Counted from the stretch's first letter, positions 1 to 17,331 are shown. The stretch: DNA of 64,000 bases from Candidatus Gottesmanbacteria bacterium GW2011_GWC1_43_10 (GCA_000995415.1 LCEX01000008.1:8398-72397); one strand, 5' to 3'. Made by a program: numbers and translations. The notes: generated by a model from the letters alone, not told the origin.

Positions 1-810
1 TCCACAACTGATCCAAAAATACGAAATGACGGTGAAAATCGTTTGCTCCTTGAACCAACGTTTCAGCTTTAGTGAGATAAACTTCAGTAACGGCCGGTAA
101 CCAAAACCAGGCTGTAAATAAAGCGCCGACAACTATCACTTTAAGTATCAGCGCTGCTTTACTAAAATCAGATCGGTTAACTAGACTCTTTAGTAATTCG
201 CTGGCTAAGAAAAGTCCCAAAAATCCGAGAGTCAGGAAAGCAGTGATGTTGTGTGAAAGAATTACGCCTGCCAAACCTAAAGCAGCAATCAACCAGCTTT
301 GATCTCTATTTTCTTTGTCTCCGATAATCCCATATAATATTAACGGCAAAAATGCATATGCCCAGTATTCCCCCACTGCTCCCCGTACATATATTTGTAC
401 TCCGTGATACGGCGCATAGAGATATACCAGGGCCGAAATTATCCCGCCCCATACTCCTCCCAACTTATATCCCAATACATACATAAATATTGCGGCCAGC
501 AAAACACCTAGACCAAACATAAGTTTGGTAACTACTATTGCATCCAAACCTGACAACACTCCAATCGCTCCTATGTAATAAGGTAACGGCGCGTAAAAAT
601 TGAAAATCGGGTACCCGTAACCATAACCCAAATCACTTACCCAACGCACCGGGAATTGGCCATCTCCCAGGGCTCGGGCCATTTCAAAAACGCGCGTCGG
701 TTGTGTGTCATCATGCATCGGAAAATATCCGCGAGAAAGAAGCGGCGACAAAATGGGAAATGACAGCAGGATGATAAATATTAACGGAAGGATTTTTTTC
801 GTAAGTTCCA
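1..810 (-). CDS. Polytopic membrane protein, YfhO/PMT-like putative GT-C glycosyltransferase. N-terminal part only; C-terminus lies beyond the window start.
   Basis: Not in the ORF track because it is truncated. Manual minus-strand translation starts ATG at 810 (MELTKKILPLIFIILLSFPILSPLLSRGYFPMHDDTQPTRVFEMARALGDGQFPVRWVSDLGYGYGYPIFNFYAPLPYY...). It is a clear paralog of ORF 781..2379 (shared YFP.HD...P.RW....G.GYP.F.FY.PLPYY motif). Confidence 0.6.
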
Positions 811-2379
811 TAAATATATTAACACAATTACTCCGCTCACGCTTAGTATATCAGCTACCTGGCGAATAGGTGTATTGGTAAAATCCACTTTCACTTCATG
901 CGCGCCCTCTGGAACATTAAGCGCCATCAACCCAGTCTGTGGTATAACCTCTATCTGGCTTGGCTTTTGATCAACCTGGGCTACCCAACCCGGAAAGTAA
1001 ACTGTATTCACTAACAGTTTGGTTGGCAAAGGTGTATTGACCTGCAGTTTTAAACTGGTACTCGTATTTTTTTCTATCCGAAAACTTCCACCGCTATCTA
1101 AAACTACTTTTTCTGGTGGACGGTTTCGCGGTTTCACTCGCACTCCAATAGGCATGAGTTCATCAGCCGAAGTTGTGGTTGCATCATTGGTTTGATAATA
1201 GTCATCGCTCGGGTATATCCGAGGTAACGTCCGGATAAGATTTGAGTTTAATCCGATTCCCAGTATTATGACTAACACTACCCACACTTTACCCAACCTG
1301 AGGTGAGCGATGGCACCACTTGTGAACGCCAGCAAAAATGTGGCCACACTTAATGTCCGCCAGGGAAAATCAATTTCTTGTAAAAAGGGTAACTGCCACA
1401 AAAACCCCGAGATTGGAAATAACATTATTAGCGCCAAAATATCTAACCCCACCAGAACCAACAATCGTGATTTAAGTGCTGGTTTACCAAAGAAAAAAGA
1501 ACCCAATGACAAGATTGCTGCGAGTAACAATCCGGTCCCGATAAATAAAGGCGGACGGACACCAAATTGCCAAGAATCAACTAGCAGCTCTGGCAGAGTC
1601 ATAAAATGTTCGGCTTTATTGGCTAAAGGGGTTTGACTCAAGATAATCTGCGATTTTTCAAGTATCGCCGGTAGCCAAAAATACGCTGACAGAAGTAGAC
1701 CCAAACCTAAAGTCACTGCTAGTATCTTGACTTTTTCAGGAGAAAATTTGACTTGCACCAATAAAAAAACCAGCCAAACGCAAAAAAACGGCAGAAATAA
1801 AATAGCTAAAGCATTGTGGGTCAAAATCAAAGCCGCCAGGGTCAAACTGCCGGCAATCATCAATTTGGATGATGGTTTCTGAATCAGTTGGTCAAATAAC
1901 CAAAACAGGAGCGGAAAAAAAACTAGGGCCAACGACTCGCCTATAGATCCGCGCACAAATAAATTGGTAAATCGGTACGGGGCATAGGTGTAAAGCGCTG
2001 CCGCCACTAAACCTCCCCACACCCCCCACTGCGACTCGGCCAATAAAAACATCGTCACTCCCGAACCCACCACTGTTAATATAAAAGTAAGTTTTACGGC
2101 ACTTACCAAACCAAAGCCTACTGCATATAGAATTTCTGCCAAATAGTACGGCAAAGGATAAGTAAACAAAAACAACGGATAACCAAACCCATGATTGAGG
2201 TACCCGGCCCACCGCGGAGGTAGTTGTAATTCTTTGATTTCGCGATGCATTTCGGCGAGTCGCACCACCGCCCATTCACCGTCATGTGTCGGAAAATAAC
2301 CCGGCAACAAAAACTGATAAATCACCGGAAGGGAAATCAACAAAATAAATAGCCAGCTAAACAATCGTGATAGTTTCAT
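781..2379 (-). CDS. Polytopic membrane protein, YfhO/PMT-like putative GT-C glycosyltransferase
   Basis: 532 aa with many TM segments. N-terminal motif YFPTHDGEWAVVRLAEMHRE...PPRWAGYLNHGFGYPLFLFTYPLPYY is paralogous to the upstream partial gene. TAATG stop/start overlap with the next gene. Confidence 0.6.
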   Translation of the reverse strand: MKLSRLFSWLFILLISLPVIYQFLLPGYFPTHDGEWAVVRLAEMHREIKELQLPPRWAGYLNHGFGYPLFLFTYPLPYYLAEILYAVGFGLVSAVKLTFILTVVGSGVTMFLLAESQWGVWGGLVAAALYTYAPYRFTNLFVRGSIGESLALVFFPLLFWLFDQLIQKPSSKLMIAGSLTLAALILTHNALAILFLPFFCVWLVFLLVQVKFSPEKVKILAVTLGLGLLLSAYFWLPAILEKSQIILSQTPLANKAEHFMTLPELLVDSWQFGVRPPLFIGTGLLLAAILSLGSFFFGKPALKSRLLVLVGLDILALIMLFPISGFLWQLPFLQEIDFPWRTLSVATFLLAFTSGAIAHLRLGKVWVVLVIILGIGLNSNLIRTLPRIYPSDDYYQTNDATTTSADELMPIGVRVKPRNRPPEKVVLDSGGSFRIEKNTSTSLKLQVNTPLPTKLLVNTVYFPGWVAQVDQKPSQIEVIPQTGLMALNVPEGAHEVKVDFTNTPIRQVADILSVSGVIVLIYLWNLRKKSFR

Positions 2380-3887
2380 TAGGGTAAGACACGATAAAAT
2401 TTTAGGTATGTGGGTCCATCGCCGCGTTGATATTGGGCAATGAGTTTAAGTGGCCAATACTCGGGTATTTGTTGCCTTTCTTTAAAGAGTAAGTACGTGG
2501 GTTGGACTTTGGCAGCCTCCTGAAGTTGTTTAGGAAAATCTCCACCAATCGGCCAAATTGGATCAAACTTGACGTTGGGATTTTTACCCAAATATAACTC
2601 CAAGGCCATCGGATACAATCCAAACGTACCTTCGGTTCCCACCAAAATTTGACCATGCTTGCTAGCTTCATCTAAATATGCCACCGCTTCCTTGATCCCG
2701 TAGCCGGCAGGCCAATCATTGATGTACTGTTGTCGGTCTGTGCTGGGAATTGGCGCATGAATCGGATCAAAAATAATCTGCCTGTCAAACCAAATCAATG
2801 GTGATATCAAAAGTACTGTTGCAATCATCAACCAGGTTCTATGACGAATTGTGGCTAATAAATGATCGCCGAATATGATGGTCGGGATAAGTAATGGAAA
2901 AACCATAAATAAAATAAACCGCGGATAGATCACTCGGCCAAATGCAGCCAAGGCAAAAAAAGGAATTATAAAATAGCCTAAGAAAAATAGTGCCCGACGC
3001 AAATTGTGTCTGATATACCAAATATTGGCAGCTAAAATAAGCAAACTTAGTAGCGGAGTCAAGTAACCCACCAACCAGGAAGTCAGACTCTTCAAGTTGT
3101 TATATAGATGACTAAGCGGAGCCCGTAAGAATTCCGCCGGAGTATAAATAAATTCCAAGTTTTTTTGGGCGATGATGTGGCGAAATTCTGACAGTCTTAA
3201 AATATTATTGTAAATCTGCGCTTGAAAAATGATGACTAAACATAAAAGTAACCACTTAAAGAGATTGGCTCCACGCTTTTTTGTGGGCCAGGGCGTAATT
3301 AATAAAGTCAGTGGCAGTAGCATCCAAAAAAAGTTAGCCGAAGATTTAGTCAGCAACCCTGCCCCTATAAAAGTACCCAAAATAAGAGCTAAATCCAATC
3401 TTTGCTTAAGCGCAAAAAGATATGTAAAAAAAAGCACCCAGATGGCAATCGCCGCAAGCAAAGCATCATAAATGGCTAACCTATCATACATCAGAAAAAA
3501 AGGGATTATAAGATATAACAGGCCGCCGATGATCACTCCACGCATCTTGCGCGTCAAATACCAACCAAACACACTTATGCCCACCATGCCCGTAAAACCG
3601 GCTATTATTGAAAGCAATCTCCCGGCAATCAAAGGATCGCTCATTACTTTTAACATCGGTAAAAGCAACCAAATGAAAAGTGGCTGTTTACCATCAACAA
3701 GCGAAATGAATCGCCACCGCGGATCAGCTAAGGCAATCTGTCCCCACCTTAGATATATAGCTTCATCGGTAAAAATCGGGATAATGGTTAAGTTGACTAG
3801 TCTGGTGACAAAATAAACCAGACTCAAACCAAGTGTCAACAAGACGTATGGAAAAATCAGTTTTATGTGTTTGTTCAAGTTGATCAC
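2379..3887 (-). CDS. GT-C family membrane glycosyltransferase (ArnT/PMT-like, GT39/GT83-type)
   Basis: 502 aa, polytopic. The first extracytoplasmic loop has an IFTDEAIYLRWG DE-motif typical of polyprenyl-phosphate-sugar-dependent GT-C enzymes. Confidence 0.7.
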   Translation of the reverse strand: MINLNKHIKLIFPYVLLTLGLSLVYFVTRLVNLTIIPIFTDEAIYLRWGQIALADPRWRFISLVDGKQPLFIWLLLPMLKVMSDPLIAGRLLSIIAGFTGMVGISVFGWYLTRKMRGVIIGGLLYLIIPFFLMYDRLAIYDALLAAIAIWVLFFTYLFALKQRLDLALILGTFIGAGLLTKSSANFFWMLLPLTLLITPWPTKKRGANLFKWLLLCLVIIFQAQIYNNILRLSEFRHIIAQKNLEFIYTPAEFLRAPLSHLYNNLKSLTSWLVGYLTPLLSLLILAANIWYIRHNLRRALFFLGYFIIPFFALAAFGRVIYPRFILFMVFPLLIPTIIFGDHLLATIRHRTWLMIATVLLISPLIWFDRQIIFDPIHAPIPSTDRQQYINDWPAGYGIKEAVAYLDEASKHGQILVGTEGTFGLYPMALELYLGKNPNVKFDPIWPIGGDFPKQLQEAAKVQPTYLLFKERQQIPEYWPLKLIAQYQRGDGPTYLKFYRVLP

Positions 3888-3980: not shown

Positions 3981-5504
3981 TTAATTCATGACCCGCAATT
4001 TTTCCCAAACTTCAATCTCTCCGGGAAATATTTGCTGCCAGATGAGTTGGCCGTCTCCCTCCCGCTCCGCCAACCAACTTCGTAGCCTACCGGTTTTCCA
4101 TGGATCCGGTTCAATGATGTAAAATACAGTCGCCTGCTCATCATCTCGATCAGCTGTAAAGGCGTATTCTTTATTTCCATACCACTTAAACAAGTAATGG
4201 TAGTTATAATCAATAACTGATGGGGAATAGACTTGGACGTTAAACGGTTTGCCGGAAGCTCTTTGATAAACCGTTTCGACAACTCGGATCTCGTTTTTAT
4301 AACTTGAGGCATCTCCAGCCCAAGGCTTGGCAAAAAATCTCCAAGGGGCCAAGTTGTAAAGCAATAAACTACTGATGATCACCCCACCCCAAATCCGGTA
4401 TTTTTTTACAAATATATATAACCCCATTCCGATGAGCGGCAGAACCAACGTCGGAAACATATTGATGTAATATTCCCACAGCGTCCCTTGATAAATGACT
4501 AAGTTAATCCCCAACAAACAAATTAGAACTAATAAAAATCTTAACGTTTTTTGTTTGCTGATTTCCTTTCCGCCGGCCATGATCATGATCAGTAATATTA
4601 TGCCGATAAGTTTATTGCTATTTACAAATGCATATGCCAGCAAATTGGTAATTGTCTGGATCCTATCACTCAGACGAACCAATAACGACATTTGGTTTAC
4701 TAAAGTCGGATGAGTCAAAAACTTAAACAGTGAGTACGTTTGGATCCAACTATGCCGCATTTCAAAAATCAGCCTGGGAATTAACCAAAAATCAAAACCC
4801 GCGCCTCCCAAAATCAGCTGTTTCATTTTGGGCAGCTGTCTGGTCAAAACCAACGTCAATCCAAAAACGGGCACAAACAAAATCCCTGCGGCGAGCTCAA
4901 ATTCGAAAATCGCACCCAAGACCGCTGCGACCCAAAACCACGGCCACCGGCCTTTTTGATATTTTACTAAACTTATGAGTAAAAGCAGCATCAGTAGTGG
5001 GACCAGATTGGGATGCCATAACTGAGCCCCAGTTGAGATGTAAAACGGCGATACAGACATGAGTCCCGCCAAAATTAATCCCAGTCGTTCATCTACCAGT
5101 TCTTTCCCCAAAATGAAGGCTAAAACTATGCTCGCTGCCGAAATCAGGTTGAAACTTGCTACCAACCACACCGGATCCCCCTTAAATATCCAGAATAAGG
5201 GTACTAGCAACCAATACCACCATACACCATGAAAAACTCCATCAATCCCTGTCGTCGGTCCAATCAAGGTCAAGTGACGGCCATTGACTATGTCATCCAA
5301 AGCCAAAAAATCTTTACCTTGGTCATAAGTAAAGGCAAAAAAACCATGTATAGTACCACTAAGTCGAGTGTAAATACCAATACCGACAAACAGACTTAAA
5401 AGCAGAATTGACTTGTGTTTTTTGATCCAACTTAAATCAAAAGTTTTTTGCGCCATATACTTAGTATTCCTACTGCAACGATCAAACTTAACCACATGCC
5501 CCAA
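3981..5504 (-). CDS. GT-C family membrane glycosyltransferase (ArnT/PMT-like paralog)
   Basis: 507 aa, polytopic. FAFTYDQGKDFLALDDIVNGRHLTLIGPTTG is paralogous to GFLGDEGRDMLVVKRMIVDHKLTLLGPITS of ORF 7444..8955. The true start is probably the internal Met near 5456 (MAQKTF...). Confidence 0.65.
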   Translation of the reverse strand: MGHVVKFDRCSRNTKYMAQKTFDLSWIKKHKSILLLSLFVGIGIYTRLSGTIHGFFAFTYDQGKDFLALDDIVNGRHLTLIGPTTGIDGVFHGVWWYWLLVPLFWIFKGDPVWLVASFNLISAASIVLAFILGKELVDERLGLILAGLMSVSPFYISTGAQLWHPNLVPLLMLLLLISLVKYQKGRWPWFWVAAVLGAIFEFELAAGILFVPVFGLTLVLTRQLPKMKQLILGGAGFDFWLIPRLIFEMRHSWIQTYSLFKFLTHPTLVNQMSLLVRLSDRIQTITNLLAYAFVNSNKLIGIILLIMIMAGGKEISKQKTLRFLLVLICLLGINLVIYQGTLWEYYINMFPTLVLPLIGMGLYIFVKKYRIWGGVIISSLLLYNLAPWRFFAKPWAGDASSYKNEIRVVETVYQRASGKPFNVQVYSPSVIDYNYHYLFKWYGNKEYAFTADRDDEQATVFYIIEPDPWKTGRLRSWLAEREGDGQLIWQQIFPGEIEVWEKLRVMN

Positions 5505-6580
5505 AATTGATACCGACCGGTAACCCCCCCATAATCACCAAACCAAAAGAAAGGCAAATAGCGTACCAATGTAGCCACACTCAAGGCTACGGCCAATACT
5601 TTGCAGGTGACTGATTGACTAATTGCGGCCAGTGCTACTAAGGGAATGATATACCAACTATAAGGTTCGCGTTGCCAAACTACCGGCAGCAAAACCAGTA
5701 ACCACAAATAGAAACTCCAAGGAACTAGTTTGTTTTGTAGTTTTTTGATTAAAAATAAAGGCAACAATCCGATACTTAAAAATTTGATGCTAACAGAAAC
5801 CATCAAAGTCAAAATCGACCAGGTAGCTTTGTGGGTAATAAATAAATATATTGCCAACAGAACCAAAGACAGCATCATTACCTCGTTGTGCGGACTCAAT
5901 AAACTTTCTACAAGTACCAGTGGATTTAAGGCAAAAAAAATCAGGCCGTGATCTATATTTGCCCCAGATACCTGTTTGAGGATTTTTTCAATCAACTTGA
6001 TATTCATCGCATGAAAACCCAAGAACATGAGTTTAAATAAAACCAATGTCCATACAAACTTCCCCAGGCCCAAATATGAGGGAATCAGGGTCAACCAAAG
6101 CCATCCTATTCCATACGGATAAAAACGGTGCGTCCAGCGCATGAATCTGATCCAGGGATCGGCCGGAAAATCTAAAGCGCGAAAAAATGTCGGATTCAGT
6201 CCATACTTGGTTACAATCCGCGCATCAAACATGTAGTTGAATAGGTCGTGCGAAAAGGCTGGGTAAGCCAAAATGAGCAGACTGGAAATACCGATCATCC
6301 ACCACATCTGTTTTCTGGTCATTACTTGTTTTTTGACTAACCACAAACTTAAAAAGTAAACCAGGAATAACCCTGTTAGTAAAACAACGAGAATCTGGGT
6401 TGATACTGGACGGTTAAAATAACCCAAGATTAGAAGCGGTTGCTGCAGTTTTTGATAAAATGCGTTCGTTGATAAAGTTAAATTTAAATCCACCTGCGAA
6501 TAAGAATAAACGGTTAGTCCAAAAATCAGGATAATTTCCAGTATCAGTAATGGAATAAGTTTGGTCGTTTTTGGTTTCAT
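5432..6580 (-). CDS. Polytopic membrane protein, possible GT-C fold glycosyltransferase (DUF2029/GT87-like)
   Basis: 382 aa, roughly 10 TM segments, motif SHDLFNYMFDARI...FYPYG. It sits within the glycosyltransferase gene array. Confidence 0.4.
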   Translation of the reverse strand: MKPKTTKLIPLLILEIILIFGLTVYSYSQVDLNLTLSTNAFYQKLQQPLLILGYFNRPVSTQILVVLLTGLFLVYFLSLWLVKKQVMTRKQMWWMIGISSLLILAYPAFSHDLFNYMFDARIVTKYGLNPTFFRALDFPADPWIRFMRWTHRFYPYGIGWLWLTLIPSYLGLGKFVWTLVLFKLMFLGFHAMNIKLIEKILKQVSGANIDHGLIFFALNPLVLVESLLSPHNEVMMLSLVLLAIYLFITHKATWSILTLMVSVSIKFLSIGLLPLFLIKKLQNKLVPWSFYLWLLVLLPVVWQREPYSWYIIPLVALAAISQSVTCKVLAVALSVATLVRYLPFFWFGDYGGVTGRYQFWGMWLSLIVAVGILSIWRKKLLI

Positions 6581-7341
6581 GTGGCAGAGTTCCGCTCGTA
6601 CATTCCCCTCAAACTATTAAGTCGGATGTGCAATATGTCTACCAATGCATCAAGTGAATCAAATAACGGGCTGACGCGCCTGGTTTCCACATAATGCCAT
6701 TCGACCGGGACTTCTTTGATTTTGTAGCCCGAACGGTTAGCCACAAAGAGTATTTCTACATCAAATCCTGCCGTCACCCGTGGTCCGCTCGCGTGTTTGT
6801 GTAAGTTATATAATTTCAATCTGGAAAAAACCTTTCGCGCCACCTCCCGCTTGAACAGTTTAAATCCGCATTGGGTATCTTCAATTCGACTTAAGCCCAA
6901 AATGAGATTTCTTACCAACATGAACCCGGGACCCATCAATCGACGTAAAAGCGGCGCTCCTGCCCGGCGACTTTTTCGCGATCCGATCACTACGTCGAAC
7001 CCCCGATCCAACCAGGGCAATAGTTTTTCAACCTGATCGATTGGGGTCGCCTGATCCAAATCCGTAAATAATATCCTGGCCCCTGTTGCTGCTAGCATCC
7101 CAGTAACGACTGTTCCAGCCTTCCCCTGATGCGTATTTTCGATAAGTCGAAAATGACTATTGCCGCCCACAAATTGCTTTATCAAGTCTTTGCTCGCATC
7201 GGTGGAACCGTCATCAACTATCAACACTTCCCAAACTAAAGGCTGTTTCTCTAAGTACCGGGCCACCTTATCCAAAGCTCCCAGGCGGATGTTTTGCTCT
7301 TCGTTGTAACAAGGAATTACTACCGATAATTGCGGTTGCAT
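6577..7341 (-). CDS. GT2 polyprenyl-phosphate sugar synthase (DPM1/ArnC-like, soluble form)
   Basis: LSVVIPCYNEEQNI...LIVDDGSTDAS GT-A DxD region, 254 aa without a C-terminal TM. Confidence 0.8.
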   Translation of the reverse strand: MQPQLSVVIPCYNEEQNIRLGALDKVARYLEKQPLVWEVLIVDDGSTDASKDLIKQFVGGNSHFRLIENTHQGKAGTVVTGMLAATGARILFTDLDQATPIDQVEKLLPWLDRGFDVVIGSRKSRRAGAPLLRRLMGPGFMLVRNLILGLSRIEDTQCGFKLFKREVARKVFSRLKLYNLHKHASGPRVTAGFDVEILFVANRSGYKIKEVPVEWHYVETRRVSPLFDSLDALVDILHIRLNSLRGMYERNSAT

Positions 7342-10177: not shown

Positions 10178-10185
10178 ACAAGTTG

Positions 10186-11046
10186 TTACTTTTTGAAATA
10201 TTCCAGAGTTTTTGTAAGTCCTTCTTCCAAACCAACTTTCGCTTCCCAGTCGGTTTCTCCCCAGTAGTGAGAAACTTTTTTAATGATATTAAGTAGTTCC
10301 AAAATGGTTTTTTCTTCCGGGTTACCTAAATTGATCACTTCACCCCGAGCCGCAGGAGTTGTAAAAACTGACATGATTCCTTCTATTAAATCTGAAATAT
10401 AACAAAAACTTCGAGTTTGACTGCCATCTCCCTGAATAGTTAAAGGAGTACGCGAGAGAATTTGTTTAATAAAATTTGTTACCACCCTCCCATCATCTAT
10501 ATCCATTCTTGGGCCAAAGGTATTAAAAATCCGAATGATGCGGCCATCAAGCTGATATTTTCGGATATAAGTAGCCACAAAAGATTCACCCACCCGTTTG
10601 GCTTCATCATAACAAGAACGTGGACCATTGGGATTGACATGTCCCCAATAGGTTTCTTTTTGGGGATGTTCCCGAGGGTCTCCATAAACTTCAGAGGTGG
10701 AGGCAAAAATAAATTTAGCTTGCCAAACCCGAGCCTTCTCAAGTAAATAATAAGTGCCTATTGAGTTAACTAACAATGTTTCTACGGCATATTTTTGGTA
10801 TTTTGGGGGACTAGCTGGTGAAGCAAAATGGAAAATGACACTCGCCGAAATTGCCTCGGGAAGTGGTAAAGTCACATCATGTTCAATAAATTCAAATTTA
10901 GGTTGGGATAATAAATGTGCAATATTTTTCTTATGGCCCGTAACTAGATTATCAATGCAAACGACTTCGTGACCAGTTTCGAGTAATCGATCACACAAAA
11001 AAGATCCAATAAAACCAGCACCACCGGTAACAAGACACTTCATCAA
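10186..11046 (-). CDS. uxs: UDP-glucuronate decarboxylase (UDP-xylose synthase)
   Basis: Extended SDR with GGAGFIGS. Near-identical blocks to UXS1: ASTSEVYGDPREHPQKETYWGHVNPNGPRSCYDEAKRV, RIFNTFGPRMDIDDGRVVTNFI, GDGSQTRSF, NLGNPEEKTILE. Confidence 0.85.
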   Translation of the reverse strand: MMKCLVTGGAGFIGSFLCDRLLETGHEVVCIDNLVTGHKKNIAHLLSQPKFEFIEHDVTLPLPEAISASVIFHFASPASPPKYQKYAVETLLVNSIGTYYLLEKARVWQAKFIFASTSEVYGDPREHPQKETYWGHVNPNGPRSCYDEAKRVGESFVATYIRKYQLDGRIIRIFNTFGPRMDIDDGRVVTNFIKQILSRTPLTIQGDGSQTRSFCYISDLIEGIMSVFTTPAARGEVINLGNPEEKTILELLNIIKKVSHYWGETDWEAKVGLEEGLTKTLEYFKK

Positions 11047-11140: not shown

Positions 11141-12103
11141 TTATACGTTTTCTCTCCAGTAATTTAGGAGGTCAGACATCGTTTTTTCAAAAGGAATTTC
11201 CGGTTTCCAACCTGTTTTCGTTACAAACTTCGTATTGTCACCAATCAATACTTCAACGTCTGATGGCCGCATCCGGGTCGGATCAGGTTTAATCTCAACT
11301 TTGACTTTGGACATACCTGTAAGTAAATCAAGTACATCCTTGATTTTCCAGGCTTTGCCGGTAGCGATATTGTAAGCTTCACCCGGATCGCATTTTTGAA
11401 CTGCTAGATAATAAGCGCGTACCATATCCCGGACATCAGTATAATCCCGCCGTGCTTCTAGGTTACCGACATGCACTACAGGCTCACGCTTGCCTTTTTC
11501 AATTTCGGCAATTTGTTTGGCGAAACTGGATTCGGCAAACACTTCGCCCCGGCGGGGACCAGTATGGTTAAAACCGCGGGTACGAATAATATTCATTTGA
11601 TAACTTTGGTGATATTGATAACCCAAATAATCCATGGCCAGCTTGGAAACTGCATATGGAGACAAAGGCCGCATCGGATTGGTTTCTTTTATCGGCACTT
11701 CGTTTGGTAACACTTTGCCGTATTCTTCTGAAGAACAAGCTATCTGAATCGGCACCGGTAAACCGGTTTTTCGTACTGCTTCAAACAGATGTGCACTCCC
11801 GATGATGTTGACTTCCAATGTCTGGGTTGGTGATGCCCAGGATGATTGCACAAATGACTGAGCTGCCAAATGAAATATATAGTCAGGTTTGATTTTATCA
11901 ATCACGGTATATAAAGAATGTGCGTCAAGCAAATCAGCTTCTTCAATTTTGATTTTATCTTGGATTGCTTCAATATTTTCCGTTTTTGAACGCCATCTTT
12001 GGATACCATATACTTCAACCCCTTCGGTAAGAAGTAATTCCGCCATGTGACTACCCACAAATCCGGTGATTCCGGTAATTAATGCTTTTTTGCCTTTATT
12101 CAT
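11141..12103 (-). CDS. GDP-mannose 4,6-dehydratase / GDP-4-keto-6-deoxymannose reductase family extended SDR (Gmd/Rmd-like)
   Basis: ALITGITGFVGSHMAELL, YAVSKLAMDY, FNHTGPRRGE, C-terminal GWKPEI. 320 aa. Confidence 0.6.
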   Translation of the reverse strand: MNKGKKALITGITGFVGSHMAELLLTEGVEVYGIQRWRSKTENIEAIQDKIKIEEADLLDAHSLYTVIDKIKPDYIFHLAAQSFVQSSWASPTQTLEVNIIGSAHLFEAVRKTGLPVPIQIACSSEEYGKVLPNEVPIKETNPMRPLSPYAVSKLAMDYLGYQYHQSYQMNIIRTRGFNHTGPRRGEVFAESSFAKQIAEIEKGKREPVVHVGNLEARRDYTDVRDMVRAYYLAVQKCDPGEAYNIATGKAWKIKDVLDLLTGMSKVKVEIKPDPTRMRPSDVEVLIGDNTKFVTKTGWKPEIPFEKTMSDLLNYWRENV

Positions 12104-12245: not shown

Positions 12246-13538
12246 TTACGATCTACCAACACCAAAATACTCAAATCCCTGCTTTCTCACCTTTACCGGA
12301 TCATACATGTTTCGACCATCAAAAAGAATGGGATGTTTCATGCTAGTAAGAATTTTCTTGAGATCAAGCTGTTTAAATTCATTCCATTCTGTGATCACGA
12401 CTAATGCATCGACACCACTCGCCACTTCATAAGCATTTTCAAGATAAGTTACATTATGCAATAATTTTTTAGCATTTTCCATGGCCACCGGATCAAAGGC
12501 CCGGATTTTGGCACCCGCATTTTGGAGGGCCGTGATGATTTTGACAGAAGGCGCTTCACGCATATCGTCGGTATTTGGCTTGAAAGACAAACCCAAAATG
12601 CCAACAGTTTTACCCTTGATAGGCGACAAAACAGTTTCTATTTTTTTAATGAAAAACTTGCTCGCTTGTTCATTGATATTATCGACTGATTTAAGAAGTT
12701 GAAAATCATAACCGACACTATCGGCAATCGCAATCAAAGCTTTTACATCTTTGGGGAAACAACTGCCTCCATAACCCACACCGGGATAGAGAAATGCCCG
12801 CCCGAGACGATTATCGAGACCCACCCCTTCCAATACCTTTTCCACATCAGCCCCTACTCGTTCTGATAAAAAAGCTACTGCATTGGCAAAAGAAATTTTG
12901 GTCGAAAGGAGTGAATTGGAGGCATACTTAATCATTTCGGCAGTTTCGATGTTTGAAATAACCGTTTTGCCATTAATTGGTTTATGCAGATCCACTATCA
13001 CTTTTTGGGCTTTGGGACTTTCTACTCCTATCACTACCCGATCTGGATGCATGGTGTCATTTAAAGCTGTACCTTCACGTAAAAATTCAGGACACGATGC
13101 AATATCATAAGTTGCTTTGTCAGGTTTGACACTCGCAACAATCGCGCCTACCTTACGATTGGTTCCCGGAGGTACAGTACTTTTGGTAGCCACAACTGTA
13201 TAACCATCCAAATTTTTACCGATTTCCCCAGCCGCGGCAAATACGGCTGTCAAGTCTGCTTCACCGGTTTTTTTGGGAGGAGTACCTACTGCAATAAACA
13301 CGACTTCAGATTCTGGTACGGCTTCTTCATATTTGAGAGTGCATTTGATACGGCCGGCTGCCAAATTCCTGCGCACCATTTCTTCGAGTCCCGGCTCATA
13401 AAAAGGCATGATCCCTTTTTTGAGTTTTTCGATTTTTTCAGGTGTGTGCCCGACAATCCACACCGTATTACCCAAATCAGCAAAAACAGCTGCAGTTACC
13501 AGTCCGACATACCCATGGCCAATAAAAGCAATTACCAT
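12246..13538 (-). CDS. ugd: UDP-glucose 6-dehydrogenase
   Basis: VIAFIGHGYVGLVTA Rossmann region, GGSCFPKDV catalytic Cys motif, 430 aa. Confidence 0.85.
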   Translation of the reverse strand: MVIAFIGHGYVGLVTAAVFADLGNTVWIVGHTPEKIEKLKKGIMPFYEPGLEEMVRRNLAAGRIKCTLKYEEAVPESEVVFIAVGTPPKKTGEADLTAVFAAAGEIGKNLDGYTVVATKSTVPPGTNRKVGAIVASVKPDKATYDIASCPEFLREGTALNDTMHPDRVVIGVESPKAQKVIVDLHKPINGKTVISNIETAEMIKYASNSLLSTKISFANAVAFLSERVGADVEKVLEGVGLDNRLGRAFLYPGVGYGGSCFPKDVKALIAIADSVGYDFQLLKSVDNINEQASKFFIKKIETVLSPIKGKTVGILGLSFKPNTDDMREAPSVKIITALQNAGAKIRAFDPVAMENAKKLLHNVTYLENAYEVASGVDALVVITEWNEFKQLDLKKILTSMKHPILFDGRNMYDPVKVRKQGFEYFGVGRS

Positions 13539-13650: not shown

Positions 13651-14526
13651 TTATATGATCCCTTGTCTCTTTATTTCTTCCAAACCTTGACCAAATGCCC
13701 TCATTGTAACTCCCAAAGAAGCTATTTTATCATTTTTAAGACGTAACTCAAGGGGCCGCGGCGCCCGACCTTGGTAATAGCCGGCAGTTTTGACACCAGT
13801 TATCAATCGCTCATCAAAACCAAACTGTCTGGCTAAAACCTGTGCCGCCTCAAAGGGTGAAAGGGACGCGCCTCCTACTCCATGATAAATTCCTGAGGCA
13901 TTTTTAGCAATAAGGGTTTCAATGCTTTTGGCAATATCATCTATAAAAGTAGGCGTAAAAATATGGTCAGTTAAAACCGTCAATGATTCGTTTCTCTGCA
14001 AACGATGATACAGTGTATGAACAAAATCTTTTTTAGGGCCACCGCATTTGGCACGGTAAGGATAAGCTATGCGGAGTACTATATTTTGAGAGCTATTAAG
14101 CACCACTTGTTCACCTGCATATTTAGTTTGACCATACCAATTGATAGGATGCGGAATTGAATTTTCGGTATAAACTTTTTCCGTTCCGTCAAATACAAAA
14201 TCTGTAGAGATATAAAGCACTCGTTTATGAAACTGGTCTGCTGCTTCTACAATATTTCTGGTGCCTTCGACATTGATTTGCCAGGCAGCGCCTGTTTGAC
14301 CTGCTGATTTATCTTTTTCGCAGCCGTCAACATCGGTTTTGGCAGCCATATGGATCACCCATGCGCTTTGTGAATTTTGTATGTGTTTTGTGACGACTTC
14401 TTTTTGGGTGATATCAACTCCAGTTGCCAAACTTAAATCGGTAAATGAGTATTTGGAATCCAAAAGTTCCACTATTCGTGTACCCACCAAACCTGAAAGG
14501 CCAGTACCAAGGATTACTTGTTTCAT
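13651..14526 (-). CDS. dTDP-4-dehydro-6-deoxyhexose reductase (RmlD family)
   Basis: 291 aa. YISTDFVFDG matches the RmlD STDYVFDG motif. N-terminal GTGLSGLVG. Confidence 0.65.
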   Translation of the reverse strand: MKQVILGTGLSGLVGTRIVELLDSKYSFTDLSLATGVDITQKEVVTKHIQNSQSAWVIHMAAKTDVDGCEKDKSAGQTGAAWQINVEGTRNIVEAADQFHKRVLYISTDFVFDGTEKVYTENSIPHPINWYGQTKYAGEQVVLNSSQNIVLRIAYPYRAKCGGPKKDFVHTLYHRLQRNESLTVLTDHIFTPTFIDDIAKSIETLIAKNASGIYHGVGGASLSPFEAAQVLARQFGFDERLITGVKTAGYYQGRAPRPLELRLKNDKIASLGVTMRAFGQGLEEIKRQGII

Positions 14527-14615: not shown

Positions 14616-15632
14616 TTAAGGGGAGGTATTATACTGCATTTTATAATAATTTTGGTACTCACCACTCTTTACGTGTTTCCACCATTCTTGATTTTCTTTA
14701 TACCAATTGATAGTAGTTTGCAAATAAGTATCAAAATCATGAAGTGGTGCCCAACCAAGTTCTTTTTGAATTTTGGTCCAATCAATCGCGTATCTGCGGT
14801 CGTGACCCGGTCGATCTTTGACAAATTCAATCGTTGACTCAGTCTTACCCATAAGACCCGCGATTTTCTTAACGATTTCGAGATTTGAAATGTCGCTAGT
14901 TAATCCTCCCACACAATAAGTCTCACCAATTTTACCTTTTTGAAAAACCGTTTCAATTGCCCGACAGTGATCTTCTACGTATAACCAATCACGCACGTAC
15001 AATCCATCTCCATAGACCGGAACTTTTTTGCCTTCAAGTAAATTGGTGATTGCAAGTGGAATCAACTTCTCCGGATGCTGAAAGGGGCCGTAGTTGTTGG
15101 AACAATTGGTGATCGTAGTTGGAAGTCCATAAGTGTGATAATAAGCCCGGACAAGATGATCAGATCCGGCTTTACTCGCAGAATAAGGGCTGCGGGGATC
15201 ATAAATCGTGGTCTCGGAAAATTTTTCCGTGGTATTTAATTTTAGTGCACCAAAGACTTCATCGGTGGAGACATGATGGAAATGTTTGACTTTTTGTTTG
15301 ACTGCGGCGTCCAACAAAACTTGCGTTCCCAATACATTGGTACGCACAAAAATGGCCGGACCGGAAATAGATCTATCAACATGCGATTCAGCTGCAAAAT
15401 GGACCACTGTATCAACACCCTGCATGACTTTCTCAACTATTGAAGAATCCGTAATGTCGCCTTTGATAAATGAATAGTGGGGATTTTTTTCAACTTCAAC
15501 CAGGTTTTCCAGATTTCCAGCATAAGTTAATGCATCAAGGTTGACGATCGTGTCATCGGGATGATTTTTCAGCCAGTACAAAATAAAGTTGGAGCCGATA
15601 AATCCCGCTCCGCCAGTTACAAGTAATTTCAT
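14616..15632 (-). CDS. rfbB: dTDP-glucose 4,6-dehydratase
   Basis: MKLLVTGGAGFIGSNF...LDALTYAGNLENL, YSASKAGSDHLVRAY, 338 aa. Confidence 0.9.
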   Translation of the reverse strand: MKLLVTGGAGFIGSNFILYWLKNHPDDTIVNLDALTYAGNLENLVEVEKNPHYSFIKGDITDSSIVEKVMQGVDTVVHFAAESHVDRSISGPAIFVRTNVLGTQVLLDAAVKQKVKHFHHVSTDEVFGALKLNTTEKFSETTIYDPRSPYSASKAGSDHLVRAYYHTYGLPTTITNCSNNYGPFQHPEKLIPLAITNLLEGKKVPVYGDGLYVRDWLYVEDHCRAIETVFQKGKIGETYCVGGLTSDISNLEIVKKIAGLMGKTESTIEFVKDRPGHDRRYAIDWTKIQKELGWAPLHDFDTYLQTTINWYKENQEWWKHVKSGEYQNYYKMQYNTSP

Positions 15633-16171
15633 AAATTTGAACTTTTGTTTAAATATACTTCAAGTAGATGAAACGCGCAAATTGTTGGTCCATCTAATAT
15701 TTTTCCTTGTGCAATCATCATGTCTACTTTTTTAATGGATATTTTTTGTACTTCAAGAAGTTCATTTTCTTCTGGATGAGGTTTCCCCAAAGAAAGACTT
15801 TGCGCGACAAAGACGGAAACTTTTTGATTTGAAATTGAATTGGCAATATAAAAACTACCGATCTCCCTCCATTCTTTGGCCGTAATTCCTGTTTCCTCCC
15901 CAAGTTCTTGTTGCGCCATTTCAAGCGGAGTTTTATTTACAACAGACCCCATAGGAAATTCCCAGGAGTAACGCGATGTTGGATAACGATATTGACTAAC
16001 TAAATAGGTTTCTTTTTTATCGTTTAAAGGAATTACAACAGAAAAATTACGACGTTCTATACTATAATACGGAGCTCGAACATTATTTGGACGTATAACA
16101 TCATGTTCGTAAACGGTCAAGTACGGACTTGAATAAACTTTTTTTGAAGACAGTGTTTGCCATTTTTTCAT
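15629..16171 (-). CDS. Nudix hydrolase (NDP-sugar / ADP-ribose pyrophosphatase-like)
   Basis: Degenerate Nudix box GSVVNKTPLEMAQQELGEETG. 180 aa. ATGA overlap with rfbB. Confidence 0.6.
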   Translation of the reverse strand: MKKWQTLSSKKVYSSPYLTVYEHDVIRPNNVRAPYYSIERRNFSVVIPLNDKKETYLVSQYRYPTSRYSWEFPMGSVVNKTPLEMAQQELGEETGITAKEWREIGSFYIANSISNQKVSVFVAQSLSLGKPHPEENELLEVQKISIKKVDMMIAQGKILDGPTICAFHLLEVYLNKSSNL

Positions 16172-16591
16172 TTACTTCACTATTCCTTGCTCGAGTTCTT
16201 CTTGAGTATAATCCACCTGCTCATCTTTTAGTGATGGATCATAAGGCGGATCTGGATAATTGATGAGCCAAGCTTCCTCATCACTGACACATTGTAGACC
16301 AGTAGGTGTTTCTCTGGGAATATATATCCGTTTACCAGGCGTTAAGATATGTTCCTCTCTTTTGCCGGAAATATAAAGAATGATTTTCATCGTCCCTTTA
16401 AGGCAAATATAGCGGGCGGCGCGGATGCGGTGCAAATGATAGCCTTTGAATGCTCCCGGCAAAGCTGCCGAAATATAAGCTATAGTTTTATCACCTTCTT
16501 TAAACAGTTCCATGAGCCACCCATTTTCTTTTCCGTCCAGGTCATAGGTCGCGACTTTTTTGGCTGTGTCTTCAATCACTTGAGTGATCAT
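16172..16591 (-). CDS. FdtA/WxcM-like cupin (dTDP-4-keto-6-deoxyhexose 3,4-ketoisomerase-like), standing in the RmlC position
   Basis: 139 aa. KGYHLHRIRAARYICLKGTMKIIL parallels the FdtA RGFHAHKKLEQVLVCLNGSCRVIL His-His motif. Confidence 0.5.
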   Translation of the reverse strand: MITQVIEDTAKKVATYDLDGKENGWLMELFKEGDKTIAYISAALPGAFKGYHLHRIRAARYICLKGTMKIILYISGKREEHILTPGKRIYIPRETPTGLQCVSDEEAWLINYPDPPYDPSLKDEQVDYTQEELEQGIVK

Positions 16592-16593
16592 AT

Positions 16594-17331
16594 TTATTCG
16601 TTTCCTGTTTTCACGAGTTCTGCGACTAAATTGTTCGCGCGCAGCAGTTCATCATAAGAAGTCCCGGCATCAATCCACCAACCTTCCATCACTTCGCAGG
16701 TCATCGTACCTTCTTTCAAGTACGAGTTATTTAAATCAGTGACCTCCAATTCGCCCCGGGCTGATGGCTTGAGCCGGCGAATAAAATCATAGACACGTGC
16801 GTCATACATGTAAATTCCGGTTTGAGCCAGATCTGATTTGGGATGCTCGGGTTTTTCTTCTATCGAAACCACTTTGTGGTGTTTGTCCAACTCTATCACT
16901 CCGTACTGTTTGCTGTCGGTTGGCATATGCTTGGCAAAGACTTTGGCGCCTTTGGCTTGTCTTTCAAAATCAGTGACCGCACTACTTAAGTTGTGGGTAA
17001 AAATATTATCACCTAAAATCACCAGAATTTTTTCCTGACCGGAAAAATCTTCACCCAGAGCAATAGCTTGAGGGATGCCACCAGCATCTTCCTGGATGGC
17101 ATAGGATAATTTGAGTTGAAAATCCCGCCCGGATTTAAGTAAGTTTATAAACTGGGGCAAATGTTCAACCGAACTGGTGATCAAAACCTCTTGGATTCCC
17201 GCCCGTTGCATCGATTCCAACGCATAAAAAATCATCGGTTTGTGGTAAACCGGCAACAAATGTTTATTTGTCACCCAAGTCAAGGGTCTCAATCGAGTCG
17301 CTTTGCCTCCGGCTAAAATCACGCCCTTCAT
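16594..17331 (-). CDS. rmlA: Glucose-1-phosphate thymidylyltransferase (short form)
   Basis: GVILAGGKATRLRPLTWVTNKHLLPVYHKPMIFYALESM matches the RmlA N-terminus. 245 aa. Confidence 0.75.
   Translation of the reverse strand: MKGVILAGGKATRLRPLTWVTNKHLLPVYHKPMIFYALESMQRAGIQEVLITSSVEHLPQFINLLKSGRDFQLKLSYAIQEDAGGIPQAIALGEDFSGQEKILVILGDNIFTHNLSSAVTDFERQAKGAKVFAKHMPTDSKQYGVIELDKHHKVVSIEEKPEHPKSDLAQTGIYMYDARVYDFIRRLKPSARGELEVTDLNNSYLKEGTMTCEVMEGWWIDAGTSYDELLRANNLVAELVKTGNE

What the first reader, a model, noticed from the sequence alone, without database searches (positions are those of the whole stretch)
1..17331. A 17-kb envelope glycosylation locus with a tandem array of GT-C membrane glycosyltransferases and an Arn-like but amine-less pentose pathway
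Seven consecutive polytopic membrane proteins (1-810, 781-2379, 2379-3887, 3981-5504, 5432-6580, 7444-8955, plus the GtrA-fused GT2) fall into at least two paralog groups: YfhO/PMT-like and ArnT-like with a DE motif. They are interleaved with two polyprenyl-phosphate GT2 synthases. Downstream sit ugd plus a bona fide UDP-xylose synthase, a Gmd/Rmd-like enzyme, rmlA/rmlB, an FdtA-like cupin, an RmlD-like reductase and a Nudix hydrolase. The logic mirrors ArnC/ArnT (lipid-P-sugar made inside, flipped, transferred outside by GT-C). However there is no ArnB aminotransferase or formyltransferase. That predicts a polyprenyl-P-xylose (or other neutral pentose / 6-deoxyhexose) donor. The many GT-C paralogs would glycosylate different envelope or protein acceptors. 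Such multi-GT-C arrays tied to a UDP-Xyl supply are not a characterised system.
Basis: inference. Interest (0 to 1): 0.7.

Follow-up and report, generated by a model that had tools for sequence, protein, structure and literature searches.

The report
CPR envelope-glycan locus with GT-C array
This is part of a large, conserved cell-surface sugar-polymer gene cluster in an uncultured groundwater Gottesmanbacteria bacterium, built from known enzyme families and most likely running on lipid-linked mannose rather than the proposed lipid-linked xylose.

Summary
The genes are real. Sixteen co-directional minus-strand genes encode sugar-nucleotide enzymes, two GT2 synthase-like enzymes and six GT-C membrane glycosyltransferases. 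The order is conserved across Microgenomates down to about 40% identity.

1. The GT2-GtrA enzyme is not ArnC-like. It is a full-length homologue of Pyrococcus Dol-P-mannose synthase (204 bits; ArnC 74) and keeps every known GDP-mannose contact residue. M5 is MptB/ALG3/PimE-like. Levybacteria-type relatives carry a true Gmd beside the Rmd-like gene, so these organisms probably make GDP-mannose.
2. The uxs copy in this window lacks 72 bp. That removes the invariant Arg277 loop UXS needs to make UDP-xylose. Other assemblies of the same organism are 100% identical over 12.3 kb and have it intact.
3. The locus continues at least 10 kb past the window edge, with a Wzx-type flippase and more GT2s that could use UDP-xylose.

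One signal favours the lipid-P-xylose idea. uxs sits directly upstream of GT2-GtrA in 22 of 28 loci, with a 4-nt overlap in 15. I rate that idea at about 0.2.

Verdict: an uncharacterised member of a known kind (polyprenyl-P-sugar synthase plus GT-C glycosylation); moderate-to-low interest.

The parts
17623..18579 (-). Membrane-anchored CAP-domain protein (318 aa) that heads the locus in nearly all relatives; role unknown
   Evidence: Pfam CAP 65.5 bits. Present upstream of the RmlA-like gene in 21 related loci. N- and C-terminal hydrophobic segments are visible in the sequence.
17339..17653 (-). Small His-rich membrane protein (up to 104 aa); a similar small gene follows CAP in relatives
   Evidence: Weak DUF5656 hit. 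Genes of 84-100 aa sit at the same position in L001-L005.
16594..17331 (-). Short RmlA-like sugar-1-phosphate nucleotidyltransferase (245 aa)
   Evidence: Pfam NTP_transferase 182 bits. TIGR01207 rmlA 248 bits, below the 360 cutoff.
16172..16591 (-). Small cupin (139 aa); marginal FdtA/WxcM-like; an accessory gene present in only 4 related loci
   Evidence: FdtA 24.8 bits. PDB hits only at E 0.01 or worse. Found in L001, L002, L005 and L041 only.
15629..16171 (-). Nudix hydrolase, probably an NDP-sugar pyrophosphatase
   Evidence: Pfam NUDIX 39.9 bits; NudE 66.8 bits, below cutoff. The L001 orthologue carries NDPSase_N.
14616..15632 (-). RmlB, dTDP-glucose 4,6-dehydratase
   Evidence: TIGR01181 487 bits, above the 365 cutoff.
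13651..14526 (-). RmlD-like 4-ketoreductase. No RmlC is in the locus, so the 6-deoxyhexose product is undefined
   Evidence: RmlD_sub_bind 192 bits; TIGR01214 189 bits, below the 224 cutoff.
12246..13538 (-). Ugd, UDP-glucose 6-dehydrogenase; present in every orthologous locus
   Evidence: Three UDPG_MGDP_dh domains; TIGR03026 455 bits, above cutoff. Universal in the synteny table.
11141..12103 (-). Rmd-like SDR (GDP-6-deoxy-D-lyxo-4-hexulose reductase family)
   Evidence: PDB 2pk3 298 bits, E 5e-88; GDP-heptose dehydratase 242 bits; GMD 181 bits. Paired with a true Gmd in Levybacteria-type loci.
10186..11046 (-). uxs, a UDP-glucuronate decarboxylase homologue. This copy has a 72-bp in-frame deletion (between window 10250 and 10251) that removes the Arg277 loop
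   Evidence: Human UXS1 301 bits. 24 aa are missing relative to five orthologues and to other assemblies of the same organism. Role of Arg277: PMC3438964.
9083..10177 (-). GT2-GtrA: type-III DPMS-like polyprenyl-phosphate glycosyl synthase with a fused 4-TM GtrA-like domain
   Evidence: Pfam GT2 plus GtrA_DPMS_TM. Family profile matches 5MLZ at 204 bits over the full length. Donor-contact residues are conserved.
7444..8955 (-). M6: GT-C glycosyltransferase (PMT_2), ArnT/ALG12-like fold, invariant GDEGRD loop; conserved partner directly downstream of GT2-GtrA
   Evidence: PMT_2 44.6 bits. AF2 pLDDT 90.7. Foldseek gives 26 hits at E 1e-3 or better, all GT-C; ArnT TM 0.62.
6577..7341 (-). GT2b: soluble GT2 resembling polyprenyl-phosphate hexose synthases (PgfS, Dol-P-hexose transferase, PpgS, ArnC); its stop overlaps the M5 start by 4 nt
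   Evidence: Pfam GT2 98 bits. NCBIfam hits are all below cutoff. PDB: ArnC 56 bits, DPMS 50 bits. Gap to M5 is -4.
5432..6580 (-). M5: GT-C of the MptA/MptB family with an ALG3/PimE-type fold
3981..5456 (-). M4: GT-C, paralogue of M6
   Evidence: BLASTP to M6 E 1e-31, 26% identity over 418 aa. PMT_2 22 bits, below cutoff. Start position taken from the gene call in L092.
2379..3887 (-). M3: GT-C (PMT_2) with an invariant FTDEAIY first-loop motif
   Evidence: PMT_2 37.2 bits. hhalign to the M6 family: 97% probability over 442 columns.
781..2379 (-). M2: GT-C of the PTPS_related family
   Evidence: PF10131 48.4 bits. hhalign to the M6 family: 96% probability.
2..811 (-). M1: GT-C of the PTPS_related family, paralogue of M2, cut by the window edge (563 aa in full)
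   Evidence: PF10131 41.6 bits. 35% identical to M2. Full length seen in L092.

Best explanation
The region is the first 17-18 kb of a cell-envelope glycan biosynthesis locus spanning at least about 29 kb (window 18.6 kb plus at least 10 kb beyond the window edge). It is conserved in Gottesmanbacteria and other Microgenomates (CPR).

Proposed mechanism (inferred unless marked as shown):
1. A cytoplasmic module supplies activated sugars: a dTDP-6-deoxyhexose (RmlA-like, RmlB, RmlD-like), UDP-GlcA and UDP-Xyl (Ugd, UXS), and a GDP-6-deoxyhexose (Rmd-like). The enzyme family assignments are shown; the products are inferred.
2. GT2-GtrA, a type-III Dol-P-Man-synthase homologue, loads a sugar onto polyprenyl phosphate at the inner face of the membrane. 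The sugar is most likely mannose from GDP-Man. The homology and the conserved donor site are shown; the sugar is inferred.
3. The lipid-linked sugar reaches the outer face through the enzyme's own GtrA-like TM domain or through the MOP flippase encoded just outside the window.
4. The GT-C enzymes M6, M4, M3, M2 and M1 transfer it to envelope acceptors (glycan or protein).
5. A second cassette, GT2b plus the MptB/ALG3/PimE-like M5, does the same with a second lipid-linked hexose.
6. UDP-Xyl and the deoxyhexose donors are more probably used by the Leloir-type GT2s in the Wzx-containing part of the locus beyond the window.

The uxs copy in this window carries a 72-bp deletion that should abolish UDP-Xyl formation. 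Other assemblies of the same population have the gene intact.
For: - Family assignments.
- Conserved gene order in 27 other species-level loci down to about 40% identity.
- The GT2-GtrA family profile matches PfDPMS at 204 bits over residues 1-357, including the TM domain.
- The donor site is conserved: DAD-x-[S/Q]-H, G-L-G, GSRY, F-Q, and the equivalents of R131, S135, R202 and K208. It is the same in uxs-plus, uxs-minus and distant homologues.
- A true Gmd (2z1m, 391 bits) lies next to the Rmd-like gene in Levybacteria-type loci, which implies that these organisms make GDP-Man.
- M6 is GT-C by fold.
- M3 and M1/M2 are homologous to M6.
- GT2b and M5 overlap by 4 nt.
- The extension holds a MOP flippase and additional GT2s.
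- The uxs deletion and its consequence.
Against: - No biochemical data exist for any of these proteins.
- The tight, ancestral uxs-GT2-GtrA coupling has no explanation under a mannose model. In Roizmanbacteria-type loci the two genes are the last genes of an operon that contains no other GT.
- No GDP-Man pyrophosphorylase or Gmd is visible in this window.
- Conserved donor-contact residues do not prove the sugar, because Arg117 and Asp39 equivalents also occur in UDP-dependent GT2s.
- The acceptors are unknown.
- M6's best structural match by TM-score is ArnT, which transfers a pentose.
- Functional unity of the whole locus rests on co-direction and conserved synteny only. The promoter and terminator scans were uninformative.
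Confidence: 0.55

Rival explanations
1. GT2-GtrA uses UDP-Xyl, made next door by Ugd and UXS, to form polyprenyl-P-xylose. This is flipped, and M6 and its paralogues transfer it to envelope acceptors: an amine-less analogue of ArnC/ArnT.
For: - uxs lies immediately upstream of GT2-GtrA in 22 of 28 species-level loci, and its stop overlaps the GT2 start by 4 nt in 15.
- The tree indicates the adjacency is ancestral, with only about two losses.
- In Roizmanbacteria-type loci, ugd-uxs-GT2-GtrA ends the operon and GT2-GtrA is the only GT there. The base-contacting Asp39 equivalent is Ser in that clade.
- ugd is universal.
- M6's best TM-score is to ArnT, a pentose transferase.
- No lipid-P-xylose donor appears in the searched literature, so nothing there contradicts the idea.
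Against: - GT2-GtrA is DPMS-type. All PfDPMS GDP-Man contact residues are retained, and they do not differ between uxs-plus and uxs-minus clades.
- Six loci keep GT2-GtrA-M6 without uxs.
- PfDPMS shows only residual activity with a UDP-sugar (PMC5526996).
- Other GT2s that could use UDP-Xyl exist in the same locus.
- The uxs allele in this window is predicted to be defective, while GT2-GtrA and M6 are intact.
Confidence: 0.2
2. GT2-GtrA loads another locus-encoded sugar onto the lipid carrier, such as GlcA from UDP-GlcA, or D-rhamnose or another 6-deoxyhexose from the Rmd-like or Rml products. The GT-C array then installs that sugar.
For: - ugd is the only sugar-nucleotide gene universally retained next to the SDR-GT2-GtrA block.
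- In the uxs-less clade the Rmd-like gene abuts GT2-GtrA at 8-11 nt.
- GDP-D-Rha would preserve the GDP and manno-configuration contacts seen in the conserved pocket.
Against: - Roizmanbacteria-type loci lack the Rmd-like gene.
- No pocket change suggests that a carboxylate is accommodated or that the O6 contact is lost.
- I know of no DPMS-type enzyme with such a specificity (own knowledge).
Confidence: 0.12
3. The region is not one system. It is a co-located set of independent envelope functions, for example protein O-glycosylation of pili or surface proteins by PMT_2-type enzymes plus a separate Wzx-dependent polysaccharide. Gene proximity then carries no substrate information.
For: - Intergenic gaps of 90-140 nt separate several blocks.
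- Blocks recombine between lineages. The GT-C array is absent from Roizmanbacteria-type loci. An ABC transporter is inserted in L003 and L004. The cupin and Nudix genes are variable.
- PMT_2 is named after protein O-mannosyltransferases.
Against: - All genes are co-directional, and no convincing terminators lie between them.
- The core order from CAP to M1 recurs in several clades at 30-50% protein identity.
Confidence: 0.13

Closest known systems
Type-III dolichyl-phosphate mannose synthase (Pyrococcus furiosus DPMS, PDB 5MLZ) and eukaryotic DPM1
   Same: GT2-GtrA has the same architecture: a GT2 catalytic domain, interface helices and a 4-TM GtrA-like domain. The family profile aligns over the full length at 204 bits. 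The DAD-x-[S/Q]-H motif, the G-L-G motif, GSRY, and the equivalents of Arg131, Ser135, Arg202 and Lys208 are all conserved.
   Different: It is bacterial (CPR), so the carrier is presumably undecaprenyl-type rather than dolichyl. It is translationally coupled to uxs. Lys178 is replaced by Gln, as in most homologues examined. Activity is untested.
Actinobacterial lipomannan/LAM machinery (Ppm1 PPM synthase plus the GT-C mannosyltransferases MptA, MptB and PimE)
   Different: Here the synthases and six GT-Cs are clustered in one array together with sugar-nucleotide genes. No PIM or inositol anchor genes were seen. M1-M4 and M6 belong to PMT_2 or PTPS_related rather than to the Mpt, Emb or Aft families. 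The organism is a CPR bacterium with a small genome.
Three-component Gtr-type glycosylation (GtrA flippase, GtrB GT2, GT-C), including CsbB/GtcA/YfhO and GacI/GacK/GacL
   Same: The logic is the same: a lipid-P-monosaccharide is made inside, flipped, and transferred outside by a GT-C. A GtrA-family TM domain is present (Pfam 49.8 bits). dTDP-sugar genes lie nearby, as in streptococcal rhamnan clusters.
   Different: The GtrA-like domain is fused to the synthase. The synthase is DPMS-type rather than GtrB-type (56 bits to 5EKP). There are six GT-Cs rather than one.
Arn pathway (Ugd, ArnA, ArnB, ArnC, ArnD, ArnE/F, ArnT)
   Same: Ugd and a UDP-GlcA decarboxylase lie upstream of a GT2 and an ArnT-fold GT-C.
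   Different: The decarboxylase is UXS-type (301 bits to hUXS1 against 84 bits to ArnA). There is no ArnB, formyltransferase, ArnD or ArnE/F. The GT2 matches ArnC at only 74 bits. There is no lipid A target in a CPR monoderm-type cell (own knowledge).
Pentofuranose three-component systems (PRPP-dependent polyprenyl-phosphoribose synthase, MATE flippase, GT136; PMC11127046)
   Same: A pentose side chain is added outside the cytoplasm from a lipid-P-sugar by a GT-C.
   Different: Those systems use a UbiA-like synthase and PRPP, not a GT2 and a nucleotide sugar. No such synthase is present here.

Membership tests
Arn (L-Ara4N lipid A modification) pathway | ArnA-type UDP-GlcA oxidative decarboxylase with a formyltransferase domain | tested here: not met
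   The SDR at 10186-11046 matches human UXS1 at 301 bits and the ArnA dehydrogenase domain at only about 84 bits. There is no formyltransferase domain.
Arn (L-Ara4N lipid A modification) pathway | ArnB aminotransferase and ArnD deformylase | tested here: not met
   No DegT-type aminotransferase is encoded in window 1-40 kb or in the 10-kb extension. The only deacetylase-family gene (19908-20780) lies on the opposite strand outside the block.
Arn (L-Ara4N lipid A modification) pathway | ArnC-type GT2 | tested here: not met
   NF007986 scores 52.6 bits against a cutoff of 529. The family profile scores ArnC structures at 72-74 bits and DPMS at 204 bits.
Arn (L-Ara4N lipid A modification) pathway | ArnT (GT83) transferase | tested here: inconclusive
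   The M6 model's best TM-score is to ArnT 5f15 (0.62/0.58). However, identity is 13-14%, the sequence profile has no PDB hit, and ALG12, OST and AglB score similarly.
Type-III DPMS (polyprenyl/dolichyl-phosphate mannose synthase) | GT2 catalytic domain followed by interface helices and a 4-TM GtrA/DPMS domain | tested here: met
   Pfam GT2 plus GtrA_DPMS_TM. Full-length alignment to 5MLZ, profile positions 1-357 against chain residues 23-367.
Type-III DPMS (polyprenyl/dolichyl-phosphate mannose synthase) | Donor and acceptor residues of PfDPMS (Asp39, Gly68-Leu69, DADxQH, Arg117, Arg131, Ser135, Phe177, Arg202, Lys208) | tested here: met
   All are conserved in the window protein and its clade. 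Lys178 is Gln, as in 51 of 58 distant homologues. Asp39 is Ser only in the Roizmanbacteria-type clade.
Type-III DPMS (polyprenyl/dolichyl-phosphate mannose synthase) | Transfers mannose from GDP-Man to polyprenyl phosphate | not testable with these tools
   This needs an enzyme assay.
UDP-xylose synthase (UXS) | SDR core with Thr-Ser-Glu and Tyr-x3-Lys | tested here: met
   ASTSEVYGD and CYDEAKR align with hUXS1 Thr118-Ser119-Glu120 and Tyr147/Lys151.
UDP-xylose synthase (UXS) | Loop 268-277 with the invariant Arg277 that closes the active site | tested here: not met
   The window allele lacks the 24 residues VFLPLPEDDPLRRKPDITKAQNLL(H). Other assemblies and all orthologues have them. The R277Q phenotype is described in PMC3438964.
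GT-C fold glycosyltransferases | Polytopic membrane core with the GT-C fold | tested here: met
GT-C fold glycosyltransferases | Conserved acidic motif in the first extracytoplasmic loop | tested here: met
   Invariant residues: M6 D35-E36...D39; M3 D41-E42; M5 D31 and D112; M2 D33. The outward orientation is inferred from GT-C homology and was not computed.
MptA/MptB (PPM-dependent alpha-1,6-mannosyltransferases) | Membership of Pfam PF26314 | tested here: met
   The precomputed Pfam hit lies on the identical protein P0241 and on all 120 listed homologues. NCBI names one homologue MptB. The local Pfam copy gave no hit.
MptA/MptB (PPM-dependent alpha-1,6-mannosyltransferases) | Elongates a PIM-anchored mannan using polyprenyl-P-Man | not testable with these tools
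   No PIM biosynthesis genes were seen in the window. The activity is unknown.
dTDP-L-rhamnose pathway (RmlABCD) | All four enzymes, including the RmlC 3,5-epimerase | tested here: not met
   RmlB passes its cutoff. The RmlA-like and RmlD-like proteins score below theirs. There is no RmlC family hit, and the cupin is only marginally FdtA-like and is absent from most related loci.
GDP-D-rhamnose pathway (Gmd + Rmd) | Rmd reductase together with Gmd dehydratase | tested here: inconclusive
   The Rmd-like enzyme is present (2pk3, 298 bits). No Gmd lies in the 40 kb of the window that was scanned or in the 10-kb extension. A true Gmd is adjacent in Levybacteria-type loci.

The most novel reading that the evidence does not exclude
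In Microgenomates a DPMS-type GT2 with a fused GtrA-like domain has been recruited to make a lipid-linked pentose, polyprenyl-P-xylose or a UDP-4-keto-pentose-derived sugar, from the product of the translationally coupled uxs gene. ArnT-fold GT-C enzymes then use this previously undescribed donor to xylosylate the CPR cell surface. The recurrent uxs lesions seen in one population would then act as on/off variation of a surface epitope.
Probability: 0.2. Interest if true: 0.7.

Novelty: new member of a known kind. Interest (0 to 1): 0.35.

Why it matters
The envelopes of CPR/Patescibacteria are almost unstudied, although their surfaces mediate an episymbiotic lifestyle. This locus is conserved across Microgenomates and takes up a large share of a small genome. 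It predicts that these bacteria build or decorate their surface outside the membrane from lipid-linked sugars, much as actinobacteria build lipomannan or archaea and eukaryotes mannosylate proteins. It gives concrete candidates for heterologous assays: one DPMS-type synthase, one MptB-like GT-C and five PMT_2/PTPS-type GT-Cs. If the minority reading (lipid-P-xylose) were right, it would add a new lipid-linked donor to bacterial glycobiology. Otherwise the value is an annotation-level insight plus a correction: the uxs copy in this assembly is defective.

Tried and rejected
- **PDB sequence searches for the GT-C families.** Profile searches with ortholog alignments of M6, M5, M1/M2 and M3 gave no hits at E 1 or better. 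I used fold comparison instead.
- **Rfam scan of the whole window.** No hits.
- **Promoter and terminator scans.** Counts were at background level (59 against 47±7; 17 against 21±5), so transcription units could not be defined.
- **Literature searches.** Searches for Und-P-Xyl, Dol-P-Xyl and related terms found only unrelated 'phosphoxylose' papers. A search for CPR plus mannosyltransferase, polyprenyl and related terms found no description of this cluster.
- **Pentofuranose three-component systems (PMC11127046).** Considered and rejected, because they use PRPP and a UbiA-like synthase.
- **Rathayibacter loci (L063, L077).** They hold a DPM1-like GT2 and a UXS-like SDR, but the two genes are not adjacent and sit in an ordinary Wzt-type wall-polysaccharide cluster. 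My recollection that Rathayibacter has xylose-bearing rhamnomannans could not be confirmed in the library.
- **Sugar-pocket comparison.** I looked for substitutions that distinguish uxs-linked from uxs-less GT2-GtrA clades. There were none in the window's clade.
- **Exact-sequence look-up of the 286-aa UXS.** It is not on record. That led to the discovery of the deletion.
- **Human DPM1.** It serves only as an illustration, not as evidence.

Full report
**What is there**

Window 1-18,579 holds 18 co-directional minus-strand genes. In transcription order they are:
- a membrane-anchored CAP-domain protein and a small membrane protein;
- an RmlA-like nucleotidyltransferase, a small cupin and a Nudix hydrolase;
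- RmlB, an RmlD-like reductase and Ugd;
- an Rmd-like SDR and a UXS homologue;
- a GT2 fused to a GtrA-like TM domain (GT2-GtrA);
- the GT-C protein M6;
- a soluble GT2 (GT2b);
- five further polytopic proteins, M5, M4, M3, M2 and M1.

M1 is cut by the window edge, and its true frame is 2-811. Several junctions are tight: uxs to GT2-GtrA +8 nt, GT2b to M5 -4, M5 to M4 -25, M3 to M2 -1, M2 to M1 -31. No aminotransferase or formyltransferase is present. The rest of the window up to 40 kb is housekeeping: t6A genes, FtsEX/PcsB, RF2, UppP and Dsb.

Exact protein matches identify the organism as an uncultured Candidatus Gottesmanbacteria bacterium (CPR, Microgenomates) from Rifle groundwater.

**Are the membrane proteins glycosyltransferases?**

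Yes, all six.
- M1 and M2 (PTPS_related) and M3 and M6 (PMT_2) pass the Pfam gathering scores.
- M4 is a paralogue of M6 (E 1e-31), and M1 is a paralogue of M2 (E 8e-43).
- Sequence profiles of the four families found nothing in the PDB, so I modelled M6 and M5 (pLDDT 90.7 and 92.1).
- M6 gave 26 Foldseek hits at E 1e-3 or better, all GT-C. The best full-length TM-scores were to ArnT (0.62) and ALG12 (0.59).
- hhalign links M3 to M6 over the full length (97% probability) and M1/M2 to M6 over the TM core (96%).
- Acidic first-loop motifs are invariant: GDEGRD in M6 and FTDEAIY in M3.

**Conservation**

I collected 27 other species-level loci that hold a full-length GT2-GtrA orthologue at 39-88% identity. 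The order rmlB-rmlD-ugd-[Rmd-like and/or uxs]-GT2-GtrA recurs in all of them where the contig extends far enough. CAP heads the locus in 21. The M6 / GT2b-M5 / M3 / M2 / M1 array follows in the Gottesmanbacteria-type clades.

Counting the window, 22 of 28 loci have uxs directly upstream of GT2-GtrA, and 15 of those have a 4-nt overlap. The six loci without uxs form one clade plus a single outlier, so the adjacency is ancestral. Roizmanbacteria-type loci end with ugd-uxs-GT2-GtrA and lack both the Rmd-like gene and the GT-C array.

**The uxs gene in this window**

The protein is about 60% identical to human UXS1 (301 bits) but is only 286 aa long. Alignment with orthologues, and DNA comparison with other assemblies of the same organism, show a clean 72-bp in-frame deletion. 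Over 12.3 kb the window is otherwise 100.000% identical to two assemblies that carry the intact 309-aa gene.

The deleted peptide (VFLPLPEDDPLRRKPDITKAQNLL-H) corresponds to hUXS1 loop 268-277 and Arg277. These are invariant in UXS enzymes. The R277Q mutant loses about 1000-fold in kcat and stalls at UDP-4-keto-pentose (PMC3438964). So this copy is not a bona fide UDP-xylose synthase.

A second assembly (GCA_000998825.1) has a different, 46-bp frameshifting deletion in the same gene, and four contigs begin inside it. Either real allelic loss or assembly trouble could explain this, and only read mapping can decide between them.

**Which sugar does GT2-GtrA load?**

This question decides how novel the locus is.

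Enzyme-level evidence points to a DPMS:
- The family profile matches Pyrococcus furiosus Dol-P-Man synthase (5MLZ) at 204 bits over the whole length, TM domain included. ArnC scores 72-74 bits and GtrB 56.
- I took the donor and acceptor residues from the PfDPMS structures (PMC5526996) and checked their equivalents. Asp39, Gly68-Leu69, Asp89-Ala-Asp91-x-Gln/Ser93-His94, Arg117, Arg131, Ser135, Phe177, Arg202 and Lys208 are all conserved in the window's clade.
- These positions do not differ between uxs-linked loci, uxs-less loci, and 58 distant actinobacterial and archaeal homologues that have no uxs context.
- The only notable change is Asp39 to Ser, confined to the Roizmanbacteria-type clade.
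- The Rmd-like SDR (2pk3, 298 bits) belongs to the GDP-sugar GMD/RMD group. In Levybacteria-type loci it sits beside a true Gmd (391 bits). These organisms therefore probably make GDP-mannose.
- M5's family and its fold neighbours mostly use lipid-P-mannose.

Genomic coupling, by contrast, points to uxs.

I weigh the enzyme-level evidence more heavily. My estimates are mannose about 0.55, xylose about 0.2 and another sugar about 0.12.

**The locus is larger than the finding**

In the same organism (L092) the genes continue past the window edge. They include:
- the rest of M1 (563 aa);
- two more SDRs;
- a third PgfS/AglJ-like GT2;
- a 482-aa membrane protein with no family match;
- a MOP (Wzx-type) flippase;
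- at least two more GT2s.

These are plausible consumers of UDP-Xyl and the deoxyhexose donors. The flippase could serve either a lipid-PP-oligosaccharide or the lipid-P-sugars.

**Comparison with known systems**

The logic matches known synthase-flippase-GT-C glycosylation: the Gtr systems, CsbB/YfhO, GacI-L, and the actinobacterial Ppm1/Mpt machinery. It is not an Arn pathway, since four of five defining Arn features tested were not met. It is not the PRPP-dependent pentofuranose system either.

I found no description of this cluster, or of any lipid-P-xylose donor, in the searched literature.

**Verdict**

The locus is real and conserved, and it is biologically interesting for CPR envelope biology. 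It is assembled from known families and most simply read as a lipid-P-mannose/GT-C system embedded in a larger polysaccharide locus. The unexplained uxs-DPMS coupling keeps a more novel reading alive at about 20%.

Noticed in passing
window 10186-11046 (deletion junction between 10250 and 10251); L006 2856-2927; L007 about 2603: uxs carries a 72-bp in-frame deletion in this window and a different 46-bp frameshifting deletion in GCA_000998825.1. Four other contigs of the same organism start inside uxs. The flanking 12.3 kb is 100% identical to assemblies with an intact gene. This is either a hotspot of loss-of-function alleles (possible surface-glycan variation) or an assembly artefact.
   Followed up: partly
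L017, L018, L020, L022-L025 (GT2-GtrA orthologues, position equivalent to PfDPMS Asp39): In the Roizmanbacteria-type clade the base-contacting Asp39 is replaced by Ser (motif VVDSxS). Its operon is ugd-uxs-GT2-GtrA with no Rmd-like gene. This may signal altered nucleotide specificity in that clade only.
   Followed up: partly
L092 11569-21599 (same organism, beyond the window's left edge): The locus continues with full-length M1, two SDRs with split GalE/RmlB-like matches, a third PgfS/AglJ-like GT2, a 482-aa membrane protein with no family match, a MOP/Wzx flippase and at least two more GT2s.
   Followed up: partly
window 17339-18579; the same position in 21 related loci: A CAP (SCP/PR-1-like) domain protein with N- and C-terminal membrane segments, followed by a small His-rich membrane protein, heads the glycan locus almost everywhere. 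Its role is unknown.
   Followed up: no
L003 14009-15710; L004 12761-14466: In two relatives an ABC transporter pair (ABC_tran plus ABC2_membrane, Wzm/Wzt- or TagGH-like) is inserted between M6 and GT2b. In the same loci the terminal GT-C is annotated YfhO instead of PTPS_related.
   Followed up: no
L013, L019, L021, L026, L028-L030, L041: Levybacteria-type loci carry two GMD/RMD-family paralogues side by side. The one tested, from L013, is a bona fide GDP-mannose 4,6-dehydratase (391 bits to 2z1m). The window has only the Rmd-like gene.
   Followed up: partly
L012, L014, L017, L018, L024, L027, L028, L031, L034 (record titles): Several MAG records titled 'uncultured Gammaproteobacteria bacterium' carry typical Microgenomates-type loci. 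They are probably mislabelled in the public record.
   Followed up: no
window 20794-21120: A 108-aa ORF matches only positions 30-84 of the 264-position TsaD/Kae1 Pfam model. It lies next to the Sua5/TsaC and TsaE genes. It could be a truncated TsaB/TsaD-family gene or a start-codon problem.
   Followed up: no
window 22969-23829 and 39523-40614: Two predicted surface proteins, one with a lamin-tail domain and one with cohesin plus Big_13 domains, lie further along the window. They are possible surface or glycosylation targets.
   Followed up: no
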